DNA from: Clostridium phage slur17
Sequence record: LN881738.1
Reading direction: 5' to 3' (one strand)
Length of the DNA: 41,318 nt
Part shown: piece by piece, positions 33,411 to 37,552 of the stretch
How the letters are laid out: each line of letters opens with the position of its first letter
Position numbering within the stretch: the stretch's first letter is position 1
Position numbers and translations under genes: made by a program
Notes under the pieces: generated by a model
Seen by the model: the letters and a program-made list of their open reading frames with translations, nothing else
Database searches by the model: none
Told to the model about the DNA's origin: nothing

Positions 33411-33743
33411 ATGCCAAGTTTCAACAGAGACCTTTTAGTTGATAAAGAAAAACCGATTTTGAAAAATGGAACAATCGTACAAAATGATTCTACAACTACA
33501 GACAATAAGACATTAAACATATATAATCTAGTTAATAAGAAAAGTAAAAAAGTGACTATGAGTGCAACGCTTGATGAGGAGCTTGTAAACAAATTAAAAT
33601 CTTTTTCTATTGATATGAACAGCGACGTTAGTAAATTATTAAGTGATATACTAACTCAAATTTTATCTGATGTCACTATAAAAGAAGAGAATTTAAATAT
33701 ATACAATGAGAGAAATAGAAGAAATAAGACTAAGAAAAAGTAA
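33411..33743 (+). CDS. Partition adaptor, probable ribbon-helix-helix centromere-binding protein (ParG/ParR-like role)
   Basis: TAGATG junction with parA. KKVTMSATLDEELVNKLKSFSIDMNSDVSKLLSDIL fits a beta-alpha-alpha RHH pattern. Confidence 0.6.
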   Translation: MPSFNRDLLVDKEKPILKNGTIVQNDSTTTDNKTLNIYNLVNKKSKKVTMSATLDEELVNKLKSFSIDMNSDVSKLLSDILTQILSDVTIKEENLNIYNERNRRNKTKKK

Positions 33744-33744
33744 A

Positions 33745-33860
33745 TAATATTATATTTATATTGTTTAGATATTACTTAAATATTGTATATATAATATTTA
33801 AGTAATATTTTAATATTATTATTACAATATATTAATATTGTTTAAATAATATGTTTTAAC
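33745..33860. repeat. Second centromere-like palindrome cluster downstream of the par genes
   Basis: 40-bp palindrome atattacttaaatattgtatatataatatttaagtaatat at about 33770-33809, plus acaatatattaatattgt. Confidence 0.5.
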
Positions 33861-33886
33861 TATAATCTAAAAAGGGGTTGGAAAAG

Positions 33887-34168
33887 ATGAACGTTTATCT
33901 GCAAATTGGAAAAGAGTTATCTGAAAAAATGACTAAATCGGAGTTGAATAAGTTTTCGCAAGAAGTAACGAATTATCTACGATTCGCTGGACATGATAAT
34001 GATATGAAAATTAAACTATTTCAAACAATTATAGAAGCAATTGCTAGAAAAAGAGTAACATTGCCAGCTGACAATGAATTTACACAAGGAATAATGTTAA
34101 GTAACGAATTAGAGATGACAACGAATGTAGGATTTATAATCGAAGGATTAAGTTATCATAATAACTAA
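33887..34168 (+). CDS. Hypothetical protein (93 aa)
   Basis: ATG at 33887 lies 9 nt after AAGGGG; the track TTG at 33878 is less likely. No motif recognised. Confidence 0.55.
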   Translation: MNVYLQIGKELSEKMTKSELNKFSQEVTNYLRFAGHDNDMKIKLFQTIIEAIARKRVTLPADNEFTQGIMLSNELEMTTNVGFIIEGLSYHNN

Positions 34169-34173
34169 ACATT

Positions 34174-34208
34174 AAAAAACAGTGTATTTATTGAATACAC
34201 TGTTTTTA
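34174..34208. terminator. Bidirectional terminator
   Basis: acagtgtatt (34179-34188) pairs with aatacactgt (34194-34203), flanked by A5 and T5. Confidence 0.6.
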
Positions 34209-34364
34209 TTTCCGCATAGTTAATCTAAAATTGGATATTATATTATTTCTATATAAATTAAATTGACATTTAAATCCCTCATAGTTAATCTTAAAATTCT
34301 TATTACAATATTATTTCTAAATAAATTAAAAAATATTTTAAATCCCTCGTAGTTAATCTTAAAA
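34203..34364 (-). CRISPR. CRISPR-like mini-array: three 28-29-nt repeats and two spacers (37 and 39 nt), with no cas genes in the window
   Basis: Repeats at 34336-34364, 34268-34296 and a degenerate one at 34203-34230. The minus-strand repeat TTTTAAGATTAACTATGAGGGATTTAAAT resembles clostridial type I-B repeats. The degenerate repeat lies at the terminator-proximal end. Confidence 0.5.
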
Positions 34365-34400
34365 GCGATACTATATACATTAATAATAATACTCTTCTAC

Positions 34401-34871
34401 TTAATTTTCAATTACATTTTGCAATTCTTGTTTACAACTTTCAATGCCTTTTTGTAATTCTTCTAAAAAAACTGATGTGCTATCGTCTATATTTCTTTCA
34501 GCAATTTCTTCGAAATTTTCTTTATTGAATTTTTTATAACTATCCCAATCCAAATTTTCCCACTCATTTTCACACCAATTTTCAAATTCTTCATAATCGT
34601 TTACGTAACAAATTTCTCCAAGCATATCGTTTAAATGAGTTGGCGCTTGATTTAATGTGAAAATATTAATTTCTTTGTCATCACCTAAAAGTTTAGCCCA
34701 AGTTTGAACTGCTATCGCTTCAACTTTTCCTTGTATATCGATATAAATTTTTATATTATTAGTCTCTTTGATTAAACAACTTTCTTTAAAAGCTTTTATA
34801 GCTTCTTCCTCTATTTTATCTATATTCATATCTATAACTCTTAAAAATCTTCTAGCTTTTTGTTTATTCAT
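34401..34871 (-). CDS. Hypothetical strongly acidic protein (156 aa)
   Basis: The C-terminal half is rich in D/E and W (YVNDYEEFENWCENEWENLDWDSYKKF). It is the last gene of a three-gene operon, immediately upstream of the CRISPR-like repeats. Confidence 0.6.
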   Translation of the reverse strand: MNKQKARRFLRVIDMNIDKIEEEAIKAFKESCLIKETNNIKIYIDIQGKVEAIAVQTWAKLLGDDKEINIFTLNQAPTHLNDMLGEICYVNDYEEFENWCENEWENLDWDSYKKFNKENFEEIAERNIDDSTSVFLEELQKGIESCKQELQNVIEN

Positions 34872-34890
34872 TTTTTATATCCTCCATTTT

Positions 34891-35397
34891 TTAGTTGTTT
34901 TTATACATAACAGTTCTTTCGCTCTTTTCAATTTCTGTAAGATACTCTAAAAATTCTTTAATTTCTTGTTTGTTTATGCCTGTAAATTCGTGTCTAATTT
35001 CGCATTTTTCAACGCGTGTAGAATATTTCTCTTCTAATTTATAAAATCCAGGTCTTACACTAGCTATAAGGTCACTTTCTACATTTTTGCTGCATAAGCT
35101 ATTTACATATATTAAAATGTTTTCTATATTTTCTATGTCTACTTTGTCGCCTTTTGAATAATAAAAATTAAATCTCAATCTTATTCCTATGCTACTGTTA
35201 ATTTCACCATGCCCCCACGTTTCAATGTTTAAACTTTTTCCAACTGTTTCTTTAACGATTCCCACGTGACTGTTTGCACAATCTTTAAGACTTATATCAA
35301 ATATATCATTGTTGATTTTATTAATCTCTTTTTCTATCATTTCAACATTCTCTTTATTAACTTTTAAATTTAATATTGTACTAAAATCTATATTCAT
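34891..35397 (-). CDS. Hypothetical protein (168 aa)
   Basis: Clean ORF and the middle gene of the operon. Confidence 0.6.
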   Translation of the reverse strand: MNIDFSTILNLKVNKENVEMIEKEINKINNDIFDISLKDCANSHVGIVKETVGKSLNIETWGHGEINSSIGIRLRFNFYYSKGDKVDIENIENILIYVNSLCSKNVESDLIASVRPGFYKLEEKYSTRVEKCEIRHEFTGINKQEIKEFLEYLTEIEKSERTVMYKNN

Positions 35398-35475
35398 ACT
35401 TCAATCCTCCATTTATTTTATATATTAAAATTATAGCATTCGACGGTGAACTATATTTGTACCAATCCAAAATTT

Positions 35476-36306
35476 TTAACACTCTACACCATCTCTAAAT
35501 ATTTGGTATGCAATTTCTATTTTTCTTTCAGCACTTTCTATTTTTCTATAGTTTTCAATCTGCTTCTTTTTAATGTCTGCAAATCCATTTTTATAAAATT
35601 GTGCATTTTTTTGTATTAATGTTTCTATTATGTATTTTTTAGCTTTCTCTATATATTCTGTGCTAGTAGCTTGTTTTACTGCGTCGTCAAATATTTCAAC
35701 TATTTCAAGTACATTTTCTTTTATTTCATTAGACCAATTATCATTAAAATTTATTTCTTTAGCTATTTTTTTAGCTTCTTCATAGCTTATACTACCTTCA
35801 ACTTTTCTAAGTTTATGAGACGCTTGAGTTTCTCCTTTTAAAAATTTTAAATTTCCAATTTCTTCTGTAAATTGAGACTCTCGAAAAATCTGGTTTATTT
35901 GAAACGCTTTTTGATTTAAAGAATTATATTTTAAAACATTTCTAAAATTATCTATAAAGAACTTAGCATCCTCTATGTTGCTTATTGCTTCTCTTATTCT
36001 TTCAAATTTTCTTTTACATCTTTCTGTCATTTCTTCTATACTCATATCTTTGATTTTGTAGTCTTCATTTTTTATTCTTTCTATTTTACTTTTTTCTAGT
36101 TCGTTAGTTAAATTTAAAATGTCTGTTCTTATATCATTAGCCCAAATAATTTGTTTTTCTGACCCTTTTAATTCTTTCATTTTTATATCCCCCTTTTTAT
36201 TTAAGAAGGATAAGCAAAGACTAAATTGTACTTTATAATCTACATCATTATATTTTTCTTTAATTTCTCTTGCTATTTTATGTGCTTCTTTAAATAAAGT
36301 TTTCAT
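35476..36306 (-). CDS. Hypothetical protein (276 aa)
   Basis: The first gene after the strong promoter. MKTLFKEAHKIAREIKEKYNDVDYKVQFSLCLSFL and GSEKQIIWANDIR look like conserved mobile-element motifs of unknown function. Confidence 0.6.
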   Translation of the reverse strand: MKTLFKEAHKIAREIKEKYNDVDYKVQFSLCLSFLNKKGDIKMKELKGSEKQIIWANDIRTDILNLTNELEKSKIERIKNEDYKIKDMSIEEMTERCKRKFERIREAISNIEDAKFFIDNFRNVLKYNSLNQKAFQINQIFRESQFTEEIGNLKFLKGETQASHKLRKVEGSISYEEAKKIAKEINFNDNWSNEIKENVLEIVEIFDDAVKQATSTEYIEKAKKYIIETLIQKNAQFYKNGFADIKKKQIENYRKIESAERKIEIAYQIFRDGVEC

Positions 36307-36341
36307 TCTTTGCTTACCCCCTTGTTTTATTTGTTAATTAT

Positions 36342-36370
36342 ATTATAATCTATATGAATATCTAAGTCAA
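36342..36370 (-). promoter_or_regulatory. Consensus promoter TTGACT-17-TATAAT for the three-gene operon
   Basis: The -35 is the reverse complement of 36365-36370 and the -10 is the reverse complement of 36342-36347. Confidence 0.6.
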
Positions 36371-36484
36371 CACTTTTTCAAAGTTTTTTCTTTGATTTCC
36401 AAAAATATAACTTTGATTAACATAGATTATTCTTTTACTTTTAATTTTTTTATGTTATTATATAAATAAGAGAGGTGTGAAAAA

Positions 36485-36697
36485 ATGACATGGAAAAATG
36501 AAATCAAAAGTATTCTTGTGAAAGAAAATATCAGCATGAATGAGTTAAATAATTTAATGAATGAATATAATAATAAGAATAATACAGTAGAGAATTTAAG
36601 ACAAAAAATAAATAATGAGACTATGAAGTATAGTGAAATCTTGACTATTGCTAATCTGATAGGATACGAAGTTGTTTGGAAGAAGAAAGAAAAGTAG
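36485..36697 (+). CDS. Small HTH-type regulator (XRE-like), divergent from the three-gene operon
   Basis: SD AGAGAGGTG. LVKENISMNELNNLM...KYSEILTIANLIGYEVVW is a pattern typical of small phage HTH proteins. Confidence 0.55.
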   Translation: MTWKNEIKSILVKENISMNELNNLMNEYNNKNNTVENLRQKINNETMKYSEILTIANLIGYEVVWKKKEK

Positions 36698-36745
36698 ACA
36701 TAAAAAAAAGAAGGTAACAACTAACTCTAGTTGCTACCTTCTAAT

Positions 36746-37552
36746 CTATCTATCAATAAAATCTAGTGCCTTGTAAAGTGTATCAAACCTATCATTACCC
36801 TTTATCATAGTAAATTTTTCTTTAGTCATAGAACCAATCTTTTCACATGCTCCACCCCCAACAACATAAAGATTTTGTGTCTGACCTGGTACATAATCTT
36901 TTATATCACATATTAATATTTTACCATCATTATAGCCCCAGCCAACTACAGTTGCGGGGATTTTGTCAACTTCTCCATCATAAACGATTGTATGTTTATA
37001 CATTTTCTTATCCTCACTATTTTCTTTATTATCTATTGTCTTATTTAAAATACCTTCTGCTATTAACTTAGCGACTATGTCTTTATGTCTAATATAATAG
37101 TCTGTATCTGCTTTACTATCTACGAAACACACTTCTATTAATATCGCTGGAGCTTTTGTATGACTAAGCCAGTAAAGACCTCTTGCGTCCGATTTTGCGC
37201 CTCTATTTTTAAATATTGTTGCTAGTTTCTCGTTGACTCTTTCGGCATATACCTTACCATTATTAGTTTTATATATCGTCTCTGTACCCATGACATTTAA
37301 TGTCGTATGGTCAGCGTTAAAATGTATTTGTACAGCTACATCTACATTTTGCTTATTGGCTATTTGACATTGCTCTGCTAAGTAGTTATTAGACTTATCT
37401 ACCTTACCACTATACACAGTAGCCCCACCCTTTTTAAGCCATTTAACAACCAAATCCATCAATATCCTATTTTCTGTTCCTTCATTTATATACCCTGTTG
37501 CTCCTGTTCCTTTTCCTGTTAGCGTATGCCCTGCTGTTAGTGCTACTCTCAT
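36746..37552 (-). CDS. Endolysin: N-acetylmuramoyl-L-alanine amidase (Amidase_3) with a CD27L-type C-terminal domain
   Basis: N-terminus MRVALTAGHT...QIHFNA. The C-terminus MYKHTIVYDGEVDKIPATVVGWGYNDGKILICDIKDYVPGQTQNLYVVGGGACEK...NDRFDTLYKALDFIDR is near-identical to my recollection of the C. difficile phage endolysin CD27L. Confidence 0.9.
   Translation of the reverse strand: MRVALTAGHTLTGKGTGATGYINEGTENRILMDLVVKWLKKGGATVYSGKVDKSNNYLAEQCQIANKQNVDVAVQIHFNADHTTLNVMGTETIYKTNNGKVYAERVNEKLATIFKNRGAKSDARGLYWLSHTKAPAILIEVCFVDSKADTDYYIRHKDIVAKLIAEGILNKTIDNKENSEDKKMYKHTIVYDGEVDKIPATVVGWGYNDGKILICDIKDYVPGQTQNLYVVGGGACEKIGSMTKEKFTMIKGNDRFDTLYKALDFIDR

What the first reader, a model, noticed from the sequence alone, without database searches (positions are those of the whole stretch)
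34401..36720. Strongly promoted three-gene operon of unknown proteins, guarded by a divergent small HTH and reading into the CRISPR-like repeats
A perfect TTGACT-17-TATAAT promoter (36342-36370, minus strand) drives three ORFs of 276, 168 and 156 aa. None has a recognisable catalytic motif.

The last protein is strongly acidic and Trp-rich in its C-terminal half (…DYEEFENWCENEWENLDWDSYKKF…). That composition is reminiscent of DNA-mimic anti-restriction and anti-CRISPR proteins.

A 70-aa XRE-like HTH gene (36485-36697) is divergently transcribed from the same intergenic region. This resembles the layout of Aca-type regulators of anti-defence operons.

The locus sits in the lysogeny and accessory arm between the lysis genes and the par genes, where morons, defence cargo and anti-defence cargo typically accumulate. 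It is physically contiguous with the CRISPR-like repeats.
Basis: inference. Interest (0 to 1): 0.6.

Follow-up and report, generated by a model that had tools for sequence, protein, structure and literature searches.

The report
Known acrIB2 anti-CRISPR operon of phiCD38-2

Summary
The window is a phiCD38-2/CDSH1-type C. difficile siphophage (100% and 99.9% identity).

**Observation.** All described features exist at the stated coordinates.

**Third ORF.** The 156-aa ORF (34401-34871, minus strand) is 100% identical to phiCD38-2 gp27. [quoted passage not shown] 2023). The core of the finding is therefore already known.

**What remains open:**
- **gp25 (276 aa).** It carries a roughly 80-residue module, GSEKQxxWAxDIR…SAKFFIDN. 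This module is homologous to the N-terminal ssDNA-binding part of the anti-CRISPR AcrIE7 (hhalign 94%; HMM E = 7e-5). It belongs to a large phage family of 3,489 clusters.
- **gp24 (70 aa).** It could not be shown to be an HTH. Two conserved palindromes (TCAAAG-N6-CTTTGA) lie between the divergent promoters.
- **Operon end.** The first terminator lies after three degenerate CRISPR repeats. These are more conserved than the flanking genes, and their "spacers" match no phage genome outside the same array in related C. difficile phages. This suggests an RNA anti-CRISPR-like element.

The parts
36342..36370 (-). Promoter of the acr operon, TTGACT-17-TATAAT
   Evidence: Best sigma-70-like site of the region, 11/12. 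The -35 box and spacer are conserved in divergent relatives L013 and L015. Transcription in the lysogen is reported in PMC10732046, citing Sekulovic & Fortier 2015.
36378..36416 (.). Two tandem palindromic operator candidates. O1 is TCAAAG-N6-CTTTGA (36378-36395). O2 is CCAAAA-N6-CTTTGA (36399-36416). Their centres are 21 bp apart, and they lie between the two divergent -35 boxes.
   Evidence: Inverted repeats found. The only perfect copy in the 41-kb window is O1. Both are conserved in L015 and L013/L014. L013 shows a symmetric change, TCAAAT…ATTTGA, that keeps the palindrome. Protein binding is inferred, not shown.
36434..36461 (+). Candidate promoter of gp24 (TTTACT-16-TATTAT with an upstream TG)
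   Evidence: The -10 region is invariant in all five aligned relatives.
36485..36697 (+). gp24, a 70-aa basic protein (pI 8.9) and candidate local regulator
   Evidence: Equals phiCD38-2 gp24. Homologues occur only in Clostridioides. It pairs with the same promoter/operator region but with different cargo operons in L013. HTH not confirmed.
36709..36742 (.). Hairpin terminator shared by the endolysin (minus strand) and gp24 (plus strand). It insulates the acr operon from late transcription.
   Evidence: 15-bp stem followed by a T-run.
35476..36306 (-). gp25, a 276-aa basic (pI 8.8), all-helical protein
   Evidence: Equals phiCD38-2 gp25. AF2 mean pLDDT 87, all-helical. 108 homologues; the N-terminal 1-127 module is widespread in phage proteins of about 150 aa.
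35932..36171 (-). AcrIE7-like module of gp25 (aa 46-125): GSEKQIIWANDIR … DAKFFIDNFRN
   Evidence: Profile against PDB: AcrIE7 chains are the top four hits, E = 0.003. A short homologue against PDB gives E = 0.011 with both motifs aligned. hhalign 94.1%, E = 1.3e-7. An independent HMM of 48 stand-alone members scores AcrIE7 residues 1-51 at 26.4 bits (E = 7e-5), against a maximum of 13.7 bits in 5,000 shuffles.
34891..35397 (-). gp26, 168 aa, alpha/beta (ferredoxin-like) protein, always adjacent to gp25
34401..34871 (-). acrIB2, a validated type I-B anti-CRISPR
   Evidence: 156/156 identical to phiCD38-2 gp27. Table S4 lists 'phiCD38-2_gp27 (AcrIB2)' and Table S5 gives the sequence in PMC10732046. 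It matches the split PHROGs 27416 and 30435.
34383..34411 (-). Candidate internal promoter (TTGAAA-17-TATTAT) just upstream of the first repeat
   Evidence: 10/12. The 35 nt between the acrIB2 stop codon and the first repeat are 100% identical in five phages. Function is inferred.
34203..34365 (-). Three degenerate CRISPR repeats (34336-34365, 34268-34297, 34203-34232) separated by 38- and 35-nt spacer-like segments that resemble each other
   Evidence: Rfam CRISPR-DR14 scores 18-24 bits, below the gathering score of 45. There are 6-8 mismatches out of 29 to the consensus, and no other copy in the window. The same element is annotated 'CRISPR' in phiCD211. It is 94-97% conserved, against 81-85% for gp28.
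34175..34207 (.). Bidirectional hairpin terminator ending the acr transcription unit (minus strand) and gp28 (plus strand)
   Evidence: 14-bp stem, T-run on the minus strand. Perfect inverted repeat I22.

Best explanation
Identity. The locus is the acrIB2 anti-CRISPR operon of a phiCD38-2-type, episomal temperate C. difficile phage.

Shown:
- The last gene encodes AcrIB2. This protein blocks interference by the host type I-B system, both from a plasmid and, more mildly, from the prophage. These results are published experiments.
- The gene is preceded by two co-oriented genes with 78- and 19-nt gaps.
- A near-consensus sigmaA promoter precedes the three genes.
- The transcription unit is insulated from the late genes by a terminator.
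- The first downstream terminator lies after three degenerate CRISPR repeats.

Inferred:
1. The operon is a multi-component anti-CRISPR island expressed both in the lysogen and early in infection.
2. gp25 is a second nucleic-acid-binding anti-CRISPR-type protein. Its aa 46-125 are homologous to the N-terminal part of AcrIE7. That part contains K6, one of the two residues needed for ssDNA (R-loop) binding. gp26 is its obligate partner.
3. The degenerate repeat array is transcribed as the 3' end of the operon, and possibly also from its own promoter. It acts as an RNA decoy or regulator for Cas6/Cascade (Racr- or Cracr-like).
4. gp24 binds the two TCAAAG-N6-CTTTGA palindromes between the divergent promoters and tunes expression of the operon.
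For: Identity:
- The region is 100% identical to CDSH1 and phiCD146, and 99.9% to phiCD38-2.
- The 156-aa protein matches phiCD38-2 gp27 at 156/156 residues.
- AcrIB2 activity, its enrichment of Cas3, the DNA-mimic model, the description 'two unknown-function genes upstream', and high transcription in the lysogen are all reported in PMC10732046.

Operon anatomy: promoter and terminators; ribosome-binding sites and gaps.

gp25 and AcrIE7:
- The family has 3,489 clusters. Many are stand-alone proteins of 90-120 aa beginning M.ELKGSEKQ, as AcrIE7 does.
- Members sit in phage accessory regions.
- AcrIE7 K6 and R49 are required for ssDNA binding (PMC12002350). gp25 is basic.

gp25-gp26 linkage: the two are adjacent in every context seen, namely the window, AR1074-1, AR1086-1, L015 and Clostridioides sp. 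GD02377.

Repeat array:
- It resembles CRISPR repeats and has the same orientation as the operon.
- It lies downstream of acrIB2 homologues in at least 24 phage records.
- It is more conserved than the neighbouring coding sequences.
- Its spacer-like parts match nothing in 50,697 phage records except the same array.
- Viral crRNA-like RNAs next to acr genes have precedent (PMC10651486; bioRxiv 10.1101/2024.10.29.618823).

Operators.

Other phages carry different acr-locus genes in the slot upstream of acrIB2, namely AP2/CasPR-like or HTH proteins.
Against: - Only AcrIB2 has experimental support. No function is shown for gp25, gp26, gp24 or the repeats.
- The gp25/gp26 pair also occurs without acrIB2 (L015). 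Its function therefore need not be anti-CRISPR.
- gp24 is not detectably an HTH.
- The palindromes lie upstream of both -35 boxes, unlike typical Aca operators.
- The repeats are predicted to be unstructured. Their high conservation could reflect recent spread of the block.
- phiCD506 and phiCD481-1 keep acrIB2 without the repeats.
Confidence: 0.8

Rival explanations
1. Only acrIB2 is anti-CRISPR. gp25 and gp26 are unrelated passenger genes, for example counter-measures against another defence, or lysogenic-conversion or replication-accessory proteins. They merely share the promoter.
For: The gp24-gp25-gp26 module occurs without acrIB2 in L015. acrIB2 occurs without gp25/gp26 in phiCD506, CD1801 and the phiCDHM phages. 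The gp25-type module is found in phages near early or replication genes, such as ParB_N/PAPS-reductase and SNF2. No family-level annotation exists.
Against: The gp25 module is homologous to AcrIE7, including the K6 position. In other phages the same slot holds acr-locus genes. acr genes typically cluster together.
Confidence: 0.3
2. The CRISPR-like repeats are an inert, decaying remnant of a prophage CRISPR array. The operon simply terminates behind them.
For: There are 6-8 mismatches out of 29 to the CRISPR-DR14 consensus, and scores fall below the Rfam gathering score. The terminal repeat is the most degenerate. phiCD506 and phiCD481-1 lack them. No RNA structure signal was found.
Against: The non-coding array is 94-97% identical across phages. 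In the same phages the flanking gp28 gene is 81-85% identical, and acrIB2 is as low as 79%. The 35-nt stretch upstream of the first repeat is 100% conserved. Unit number varies (3 or 4), but unit sequences are kept.
Confidence: 0.35
3. The repeats are a working mini-CRISPR array that uses host Cas proteins against competing phages, as proposed for other C. difficile prophage arrays and as annotated in phiCD211.
For: The homologous element is annotated rpt_family=CRISPR in phiCD211. PMC10732046 describes it as a 4-spacer array targeting known phages. Prophage arrays are expressed in C. difficile (PMC4556805).
Against: The spacer-like segments are conserved between phages and resemble each other, which fits tandem duplication rather than acquisition. 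In 50,697 phage records they match only the same arrays. The repeats are degenerate. The array is co-encoded with an inhibitor of the very interference machinery it would need.
Confidence: 0.1
4. The operon is defence cargo, such as superinfection exclusion or abortive infection, rather than anti-defence.
For: It lies in the accessory arm and is expressed in the lysogen. A gp24 homologue controls a membrane-protein operon in L013 that could be an exclusion system.
Against: No PADLOC hit for any of the proteins. The third gene is a proven anti-CRISPR.
Confidence: 0.05
5. gp24 is not the regulator of the operon. The palindromes are bound by another phage or host factor, or by nothing.
For: No detectable HTH. 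AR1086-1 carries gp25/gp26/acrIB2 without gp24. Counting copies with up to 2 mismatches, the palindrome is not above chance in the window.
Against: gp24 and the promoter/palindrome block move together even when the cargo changes (L013). The perfect palindrome occurs only here. Both half-sites changed symmetrically in L013. Ten of 13 homologues give the same near-full-length sub-threshold DUF6471 match.
Confidence: 0.3

Closest known systems
AcrIB2 locus of phage phiCD38-2 (Muzyukina et al., mSphere 2023, PMC10732046)
   Same: It is the same locus. The DNA is 99.9-100% identical and AcrIB2 is 156/156 identical. Gene order is the same: gp24 / gp25-gp26-gp27(acrIB2) / gp28, between the endolysin and ParA.
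   Different: Nothing differs in sequence. The paper leaves gp25, gp26 and gp24 as 'unknown function / possible novel Aca'. It does not describe the repeats downstream of acrIB2 in phiCD38-2, only in phiCD211.
AcrIE7 (Pseudomonas type I-E/I-C anti-CRISPR that binds R-loop ssDNA; PDB 9KJB, 9L2Q, 9LA6, 9N3X)
   Same: gp25 aa 46-125 share the two N-terminal motifs, GSEKQ.xWA and DA+xxIDN, in the same order. The lysine equivalent to K6, which is needed for ssDNA binding, is included. Both proteins are basic and helical.
Aca (anti-CRISPR-associated) repressors
   Same: gp24 is a small protein encoded at an acr locus, and inverted repeats lie in the acr promoter region.
   Different: gp24 is divergently transcribed rather than co-transcribed downstream of the acr genes. 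No HTH could be demonstrated. The palindromes lie upstream of the -35 box instead of overlapping the core promoter. gp24 homologues also accompany non-acr cargo.
RNA anti-CRISPRs (Racr; Camara-Wilpert et al. 2023) and Cas/CreT-repressing crRNA-like RNAs (Cracr; bioRxiv 10.1101/2024.10.29.618823)
   Same: The element consists of degenerate CRISPR-repeat-like sequences on a phage, immediately next to an acr gene and in the transcribed orientation. Its spacer-like segments target no known invader. It is organised as a small multiplexed array ending in a terminator.
   Different: No RNA, Cas binding or phenotype has been shown. Complementarity of the spacer-like parts to a cas or toxin promoter could not be tested. 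No type I-B or Clostridioides example is described in those papers.
Cas-subunit mimics AcrIB3 (Cas5-like) and AcrIB4 (Cas8b C-terminal-domain-like) of Listeria phages

Membership tests
AcrIB2 | Sequence identity to the experimentally validated protein (phiCD38-2 gp27, 156 aa) | tested here: met
   156/156 identical. The sequence and the name gp27 are given in Tables S4 and S5 of PMC10732046.
AcrIB2 | Inhibition of C. difficile type I-B CRISPR interference | not testable with these tools
   Shown experimentally in PMC10732046 for the identical protein.
AcrIB2 | Acidic and aromatic-rich composition, with the conserved position between lysis genes and the gp28-like gene | tested here: met
   pI 4.5; C-terminal half has 22 D+E against 6 K+R. 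Same position in 56 phage records.
AcrIE7-like (gp25) | Homology to the AcrIE7 sequence | tested here: inconclusive
   Significant, but only over AcrIE7 residues 2-52: E = 0.003 and 0.011, hhalign 94%, HMM E = 7e-5 against shuffles of at most 13.7 bits. The C-terminal half of AcrIE7 is not matched.
AcrIE7-like (gp25) | Conservation of the ssDNA-binding residues K6 and R49 | tested here: inconclusive
   The K6 equivalent (K51 in GSEKQ) is nearly invariant in the family. The position aligned with R49 is F121 in gp25, with R122 adjacent. Some relatives have IDNR.
AcrIE7-like (gp25) | Seven-helix bundle fold of AcrIE7 | tested here: not met
AcrIE7-like (gp25) | Anti-CRISPR activity or ssDNA binding | not testable with these tools
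   Requires an interference assay or EMSA.
Aca regulator (gp24) | Helix-turn-helix DNA-binding domain | tested here: inconclusive
   Only a sub-threshold DUF6471 match: 21 bits against a cut-off of 26.8, in 10 of 13 homologues. PDB profile search negative. hhalign against three XRE domains gives probability below 2%.
Aca regulator (gp24) | Encoded in or next to an acr operon | tested here: met
   Divergent from the acrIB2 operon across a 178-bp intergenic region. However, it also sits next to non-acr cargo in L013.
Aca regulator (gp24) | Inverted-repeat operator in the acr promoter, bound by the protein to repress transcription | tested here: inconclusive
   Two conserved palindromes are present, but upstream of the -35 box. 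Binding and repression are not testable here.
Racr / Cracr RNA anti-CRISPR (repeat array) | Sequence resembling the host CRISPR repeat, encoded on a mobile element outside a cas locus | tested here: met
   21-23 of 29 positions match CRISPR-DR14, the C. difficile-type repeat. Three units with a 65-68 bp period, and none elsewhere in the window.
Racr / Cracr RNA anti-CRISPR (repeat array) | No conventional invader-derived spacers | tested here: met
   Spacer-like parts are conserved between phages and resemble each other. There are no matches in 50,697 phage records apart from the homologous arrays, and none elsewhere in the window.
Racr / Cracr RNA anti-CRISPR (repeat array) | Transcribed, with the RNA bound or processed by Cas6/Cascade | not testable with these tools
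   Orientation and terminator position make transcription likely, but no RNA data could be read. Sekulovic & Fortier 2015 is not in the library.
Racr / Cracr RNA anti-CRISPR (repeat array) | For Cracr: partial complementarity of the spacer-like part to a cas or toxin promoter next to a PAM | not tested
An exact 14-mer scan of 596 Gb would be swamped by chance AT-rich hits.
Cas7 / RAMP mimic (gp26) | RAMP (modified RRM) fold similar to Cas7 | tested here: inconclusive
Cas7 / RAMP mimic (gp26) | Sequence similarity to a Cas protein, as in AcrIB3 and AcrIB4 | tested here: not met
   No Cas family in Pfam, NCBIfam, PADLOC or the PDB profile search.

The most novel reading that the evidence does not exclude
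The operon is a layered protein-plus-RNA anti-CRISPR island in which three components act together.
- AcrIB2 is a DNA mimic that targets Cas3.
- gp25 is the first Gram-positive, type I-B representative of a very large AcrIE7-related family of R-loop/ssDNA binders. It works with its obligate partner gp26, which is possibly a RAMP-like Cascade decoy.
- The conserved degenerate repeat array is transcribed as the operon's 3' end. It gives crRNA-like RNAs that sequester Cas6/Cascade or reprogram it to silence cas genes (a type I-B Racr/Cracr).
The whole island is tuned by gp24 through the TCAAAG-N6-CTTTGA operators.
Probability: 0.2. Interest if true: 0.75.

Novelty: already known. Interest (0 to 1): 0.38.

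Why it matters
AcrIB2 is the first inhibitor found for the C. difficile type I-B system. It matters for phage therapy and for CRISPR-based antimicrobials against this pathogen, but that is published work.

What would matter if confirmed:
- **The AcrIE7 link.** AcrIE7 is described as a unique fold and mechanism. Its N-terminal ssDNA-binding motif would belong to a family of several thousand phage protein clusters, including gp25. This would make R-loop or ssDNA sequestration a widespread counter-defence strategy.
- **The "CRISPR array" next to acrIB2 homologues.** In C. difficile phages, including the one annotated in phiCD211, it may be a conserved RNA anti-CRISPR rather than an immune array. 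That would change how prophage "arrays" in this species are read.
- **The regulatory cassette.** gp24 plus its palindromes would be a portable unit for accessory operons.

Tried and rejected
- **Family searches.** Pfam, PHROGs, NCBIfam and PADLOC scans of all proteins gave no informative family. PHROG matches were all 'unknown function'.
- **AFDB50 fold search.** The library was not available.
- **gp24 as XRE HTH.** The PDB profile search and hhalign against a phiCD211 XRE regulator, 434 Cro and SinR were all negative.
- **gp24 and gp28 as paralogues.** No similarity was found.
- **gp28.** No PDB match.
- **Self-targets.** Spacer-like segments searched against the window gave none. Against all phage records they matched only the homologous arrays plus chance AT-rich hits.
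- **RNA folding.** The repeats and the whole 3' region showed no structure signal (z = -1.2).
- **Literature.** The transcriptome paper (Sekulovic & Fortier 2015), the phiCD38-2 genome paper and the phiCD211 paper are not in the library. A text search for the GSEKQ motif and for DUF6471 found nothing.

**Caveat.** Only residues 2-52, which one search printed, take part in the alignment.

**Caveat on orientation.** The functional orientation of the C. difficile repeat (GTTTTA…GTAAAT) rests on my own knowledge of the published consensus.


Full report
**What the window is**

Region 33700-37000 is 100% identical to Clostridium phages CDSH1 and phiCD146 and 99.9% identical to phiCD38-2, in reverse orientation. 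In phiCD38-2 numbering:
- the 70-aa plus-strand ORF is gp24;
- the three minus-strand ORFs are gp25 (276 aa), gp26 (168 aa) and gp27 (156 aa);
- the convergent 96-aa ORF is gp28;
- ParA is gp30, and the endolysin and holin are gp23 and gp22.

**Check of the observation**

All ORFs are present at the stated coordinates. Each has an ATG start and a strong ribosome-binding site. The intercistronic gaps are 78 and 19 nt.

TTGACT-17-TATAAT at 36370->36342 scores 11/12 and is the best promoter-like site in the region.

Three terminator-like hairpins were found where 0.2 are expected by chance.
- One lies at 36742->36709, directly after the endolysin. The operon is therefore not simply read from the late promoter.
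- One lies at 34207->34175. It is also a perfect 14-bp inverted repeat with T-runs on both strands.
- No terminator lies between the acrIB2 stop codon (34401) and the three repeat units at 34203-34365.

The 156-aa protein has pI 4.5. Its C-terminal half carries 22 acidic against 6 basic residues and 3 of its 4 tryptophans.

**The third gene is AcrIB2**

The 156-aa protein is 156/156 identical to phiCD38-2 gp27. Muzyukina et al. (mSphere 2023, PMC10732046) identified this gene as acrIB2. Their Table S4 lists 'phiCD38-2_gp27 (AcrIB2)… Functional', and Table S5 gives the 156-aa sequence starting MNKQKARRF.

They report the following:
- It restores conjugation of a targeted plasmid and viability in a self-targeting assay.
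- The prophage itself lowers interference about 10-fold.
- It acts on the partial cas operon.
- It co-purifies with Cas3 and many DNA-binding proteins.
[quoted passage not shown] On this basis they propose a DNA-mimic mechanism.
- Some adjacent genes may encode novel Aca proteins.

My PHROG scan matches this protein to two half-length families (aa 1-102 and 103-156). This fits the split gp28/gp29 variants of phiCDHM13 that the paper describes.

**gp25**

Standard libraries gave nothing. A homologue search found 108 proteins.
- Full-length relatives occur only in Clostridioides.
- Residues 1-127 recur in many metagenomic phage proteins of about 150 aa.
- The alignment shows three conserved motifs: LFKEAHKMTxEIxxKYxDVDYKxQFxLCLSFL, ELKGSEKQIKWAxDIR and SAKFFIDNF.

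A profile of this alignment searched against all PDB sequences gave four AcrIE7 entries as the top hits, at E about 0.003. A relative lacking the insertion aligned to AcrIE7 residues 3-52 with both motifs in register, at E = 0.011. Further tests agree:
- hhalign of a domain alignment against AcrIE7 gives 94.1% probability, E = 1.3e-7.
- An HMM built only from 48 stand-alone family members scores AcrIE7 residues 1-51 at 26.4 bits, E = 7e-5 for a PDB-sized database.
- The best of 5,000 shuffled versions of that AcrIE7 segment scores 13.7 bits.

An exhaustive HMMER search with the domain profile found 3,489 clusters at E <= 1e-3. Many are 90-120-aa proteins that begin M.ELKGSEKQ.KWA, as AcrIE7 does. 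Three sampled members all lie in phage accessory regions.

AcrIE7 blocks type I-E/I-C interference by binding the displaced ssDNA of the R-loop, and K6 and R49 are required (PMC12002350).
- K6 is the lysine of GSEKQ and is nearly invariant in the gp25 family.
- R49 follows IDN, where gp25 has F121-R122.
- gp25 is basic, with pI 8.8.

Limits on this link:
- The homology covers about 50 aligned residues.
- The rest of gp25 (aa 150-276) is specific to Clostridioides phages.

I conclude that gp25 contains an AcrIE7-N-like nucleic-acid-binding module. It is a reasonable candidate for a second anti-CRISPR, but this is unproven.

**gp26**

Only seven homologues were found, all in Clostridioides. Each is encoded next to a full-length gp25 homologue.

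One of five AF2 models is confident (pLDDT 81, pTM 0.80). It shows a β-α-β-β-β-α-β-β-α sandwich.
- Foldseek finds nothing significant and no Cas7. Its best hits are SerRS, a phage SAM lyase and ribosomal protein S6, with TM <= 0.36.
- There is no sequence signal.

The fold is ferredoxin-like and its affiliation stays open. Cas-subunit mimics exist among type I-B Acrs: AcrIB3 mimics Cas5 and AcrIB4 mimics the Cas8b C-terminal domain. Those share about 38% identity with Cas proteins, whereas gp26 shares none.

**gp24 and the intergenic region**

gp24 has 12 homologues, all in Clostridioides. The only family signal is a near-full-length but sub-threshold match to DUF6471 (21 bits; cut-off 26.8), seen in 10 of 13 homologues. 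The PDB profile search and hhalign against XRE domains were negative.

The DNA is more informative.
- Two 18-bp palindromes lie between the -35 box of the operon promoter (36365-36370) and a candidate gp24 promoter (36434-36461). They are TCAAAG-N6-CTTTGA (36378-36395, perfect) and CCAAAA-N6-CTTTGA (36399-36416), 21 bp apart.
- The perfect palindrome occurs nowhere else in the 41-kb genome.
- In a Clostridioides sp. prophage (L013), the gp24 homologue is 79% identical and the divergent cargo is a set of membrane proteins. The promoter and both palindromes are kept there.
- In L013 the first palindrome reads TCAAAT-N6-ATTTGA, a symmetric double change.

gp24 plus this control region thus behaves as a portable cassette in front of variable cargo. 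That is the best available argument that gp24 is the local regulator.

The sites lie upstream of both -35 boxes. The mode of action (repression, activation or looping) cannot be inferred, and this differs from typical Aca operators.

**The repeats at the 3' end**

The three units match Rfam CRISPR-DR14, the C. difficile-type repeat, at 18-24 bits against a gathering score of 45. This is 21-23 of 29 positions. Read on the minus strand, which is the strand of the operon, they have the orientation GTTTTA…TAAAT of the functional repeat. That orientation comes from my own knowledge of the published consensus.

The 38- and 35-nt 'spacers' resemble each other: D3 shows 86% identity over 57 nt including the repeat. 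They are conserved across phages.

The same element, with 3 or 4 units, lies directly downstream of acrIB2 homologues in the phiCD38-2 group, AR1074-1, CD1801, JD032/033, phiCD418, phiCDHM11/13/14 and the large phiCD211-like phages. It is absent in phiCD506 and phiCD481-1. In phiCD211 it is the feature annotated rpt_family=CRISPR.

Against four other phages that carry the array (AR1074-1, AR1086-1, CD1801, phiCD211), the conservation pattern is unusual for non-coding DNA:

| Segment | Identity to the window |
|---|---|
| Repeat array | 94-97% |
| gp28 | 81-85% |
| acrIB2 | 79-98% |
| 35 nt between the acrIB2 stop and the first repeat | 100% |

The 35-nt stretch is also 100% identical in phiCD506, which lacks the array. 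Part of a TTGAAA-17-TATTAT promoter-like site (34411->34383) lies within it.

The spacer-like segments match nothing else in the window. In 50,697 phage records they match only the homologous arrays.

This does not fit an adaptive mini-array, and it fits poorly with an inert relic. It resembles the phage-encoded crRNA-like RNAs described as Racrs and Cracrs. Those are enriched next to acr genes and can be arranged as small arrays ending in a terminator. Neither paper describes a type I-B or Clostridioides case.

No RNA data could be read, and complementarity to host cas promoters could not be tested. RNA folding gave no signal, and the genuine repeat is also essentially unstructured.

**Context in other phages**

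acrIB2 is the constant element and the genes upstream of it vary.
- phiCD506 has a divergent HTH_17-like gene and a 98-aa gene.
- CD1801 has a 99-aa gene and a Cys-rich AP2 protein.
- phiCD211 has XRE regulators.

AP2/CapR proteins of this kind were recently reported to be DNA-binding anti-CRISPRs (CasPRs) that silence cas genes. The slot upstream of acrIB2 is thus an anti-CRISPR island in several phages. This raises the prior that gp25/gp26 are anti-defence genes. However, the gp24-gp25-gp26 module also occurs without acrIB2 (L015).

**Verdict**

- The remaining value lies in four unpublished, testable leads:
  - gp25 as a member of a very large AcrIE7-related family;
  - the obligate gp25-gp26 pairing;
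  - the gp24/palindrome control cassette;
  - the conserved degenerate repeat array as a possible RNA anti-CRISPR.

Noticed in passing
window 33744-33870: AT-rich direct repeats with an 11-bp period (six copies), plus a large imperfect palindrome. They lie between the 110-aa Arc/RHH-like gene (33411-33743) that follows ParA and gp28. This is a candidate centromere (parS) for the partition module of this episomal prophage.
   Followed up: no
L016 5001-5207 and L017 (C. difficile prophages): A 68-aa hybrid protein made of the gp28 N-terminus and the gp24 C-terminus. In these prophages the whole gp25-gp26-acrIB2-repeat block is missing, and two unrelated genes (188 and 163 aa) sit before the endolysin. 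This looks like a deletion or replacement of the acr cassette between its two flanking plus-strand genes.
   Followed up: partly
L013 3782-5213 (Clostridioides sp. ES-S-0145-01): A gp24 homologue (79% identity) with the same promoter and palindromes. It faces a different operon of predicted membrane proteins (265, 190, 82 and 58 aa), followed by two BlaI/Penicillinase_R-type regulators.
   Followed up: partly
L012 2920-3211 (phiCD211, NC_029048.2 119021-119312): The feature annotated as a CRISPR array in phiCD211 is the same conserved degenerate array found downstream of acrIB2 in the window. Its 'spacers' are shared with other phages' arrays. Reported 'targets' in other phages may therefore be the homologous arrays themselves.
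   Followed up: partly
L005 2552-3196 (phage CD1801): The AP2-domain protein upstream of acrIB2 has two Cys-rich CxCxC…CGC motifs ahead of the AP2 domain. This resembles the CapR+AP2 'CasPR' DNA-binding anti-CRISPRs described in a 2026 preprint.
   Followed up: no
L015 2859-3392: In a prophage carrying gp24-gp25-gp26 homologues, the place of acrIB2 is taken by an unrelated 177-aa protein with no family match, and no repeat array follows. This protein is a candidate alternative anti-defence gene.
   Followed up: no
window 35476-35900 (gp25 aa 191-272): The C-terminal domain of gp25 shows weak similarity (E about 2e-4, 27% identity) to the C-terminal part of the 151-aa relatives. gp25 may therefore contain a second, diverged copy of the helical module.
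   Followed up: no
L011 1182-1486: An unrelated metagenomic phage contig encoding a gp25-like 168-aa protein also carries a genuine five-repeat CRISPR array (4 mismatches to CRISPR-DR14) next to a TnpB/Cas12f-like gene.
   Followed up: no
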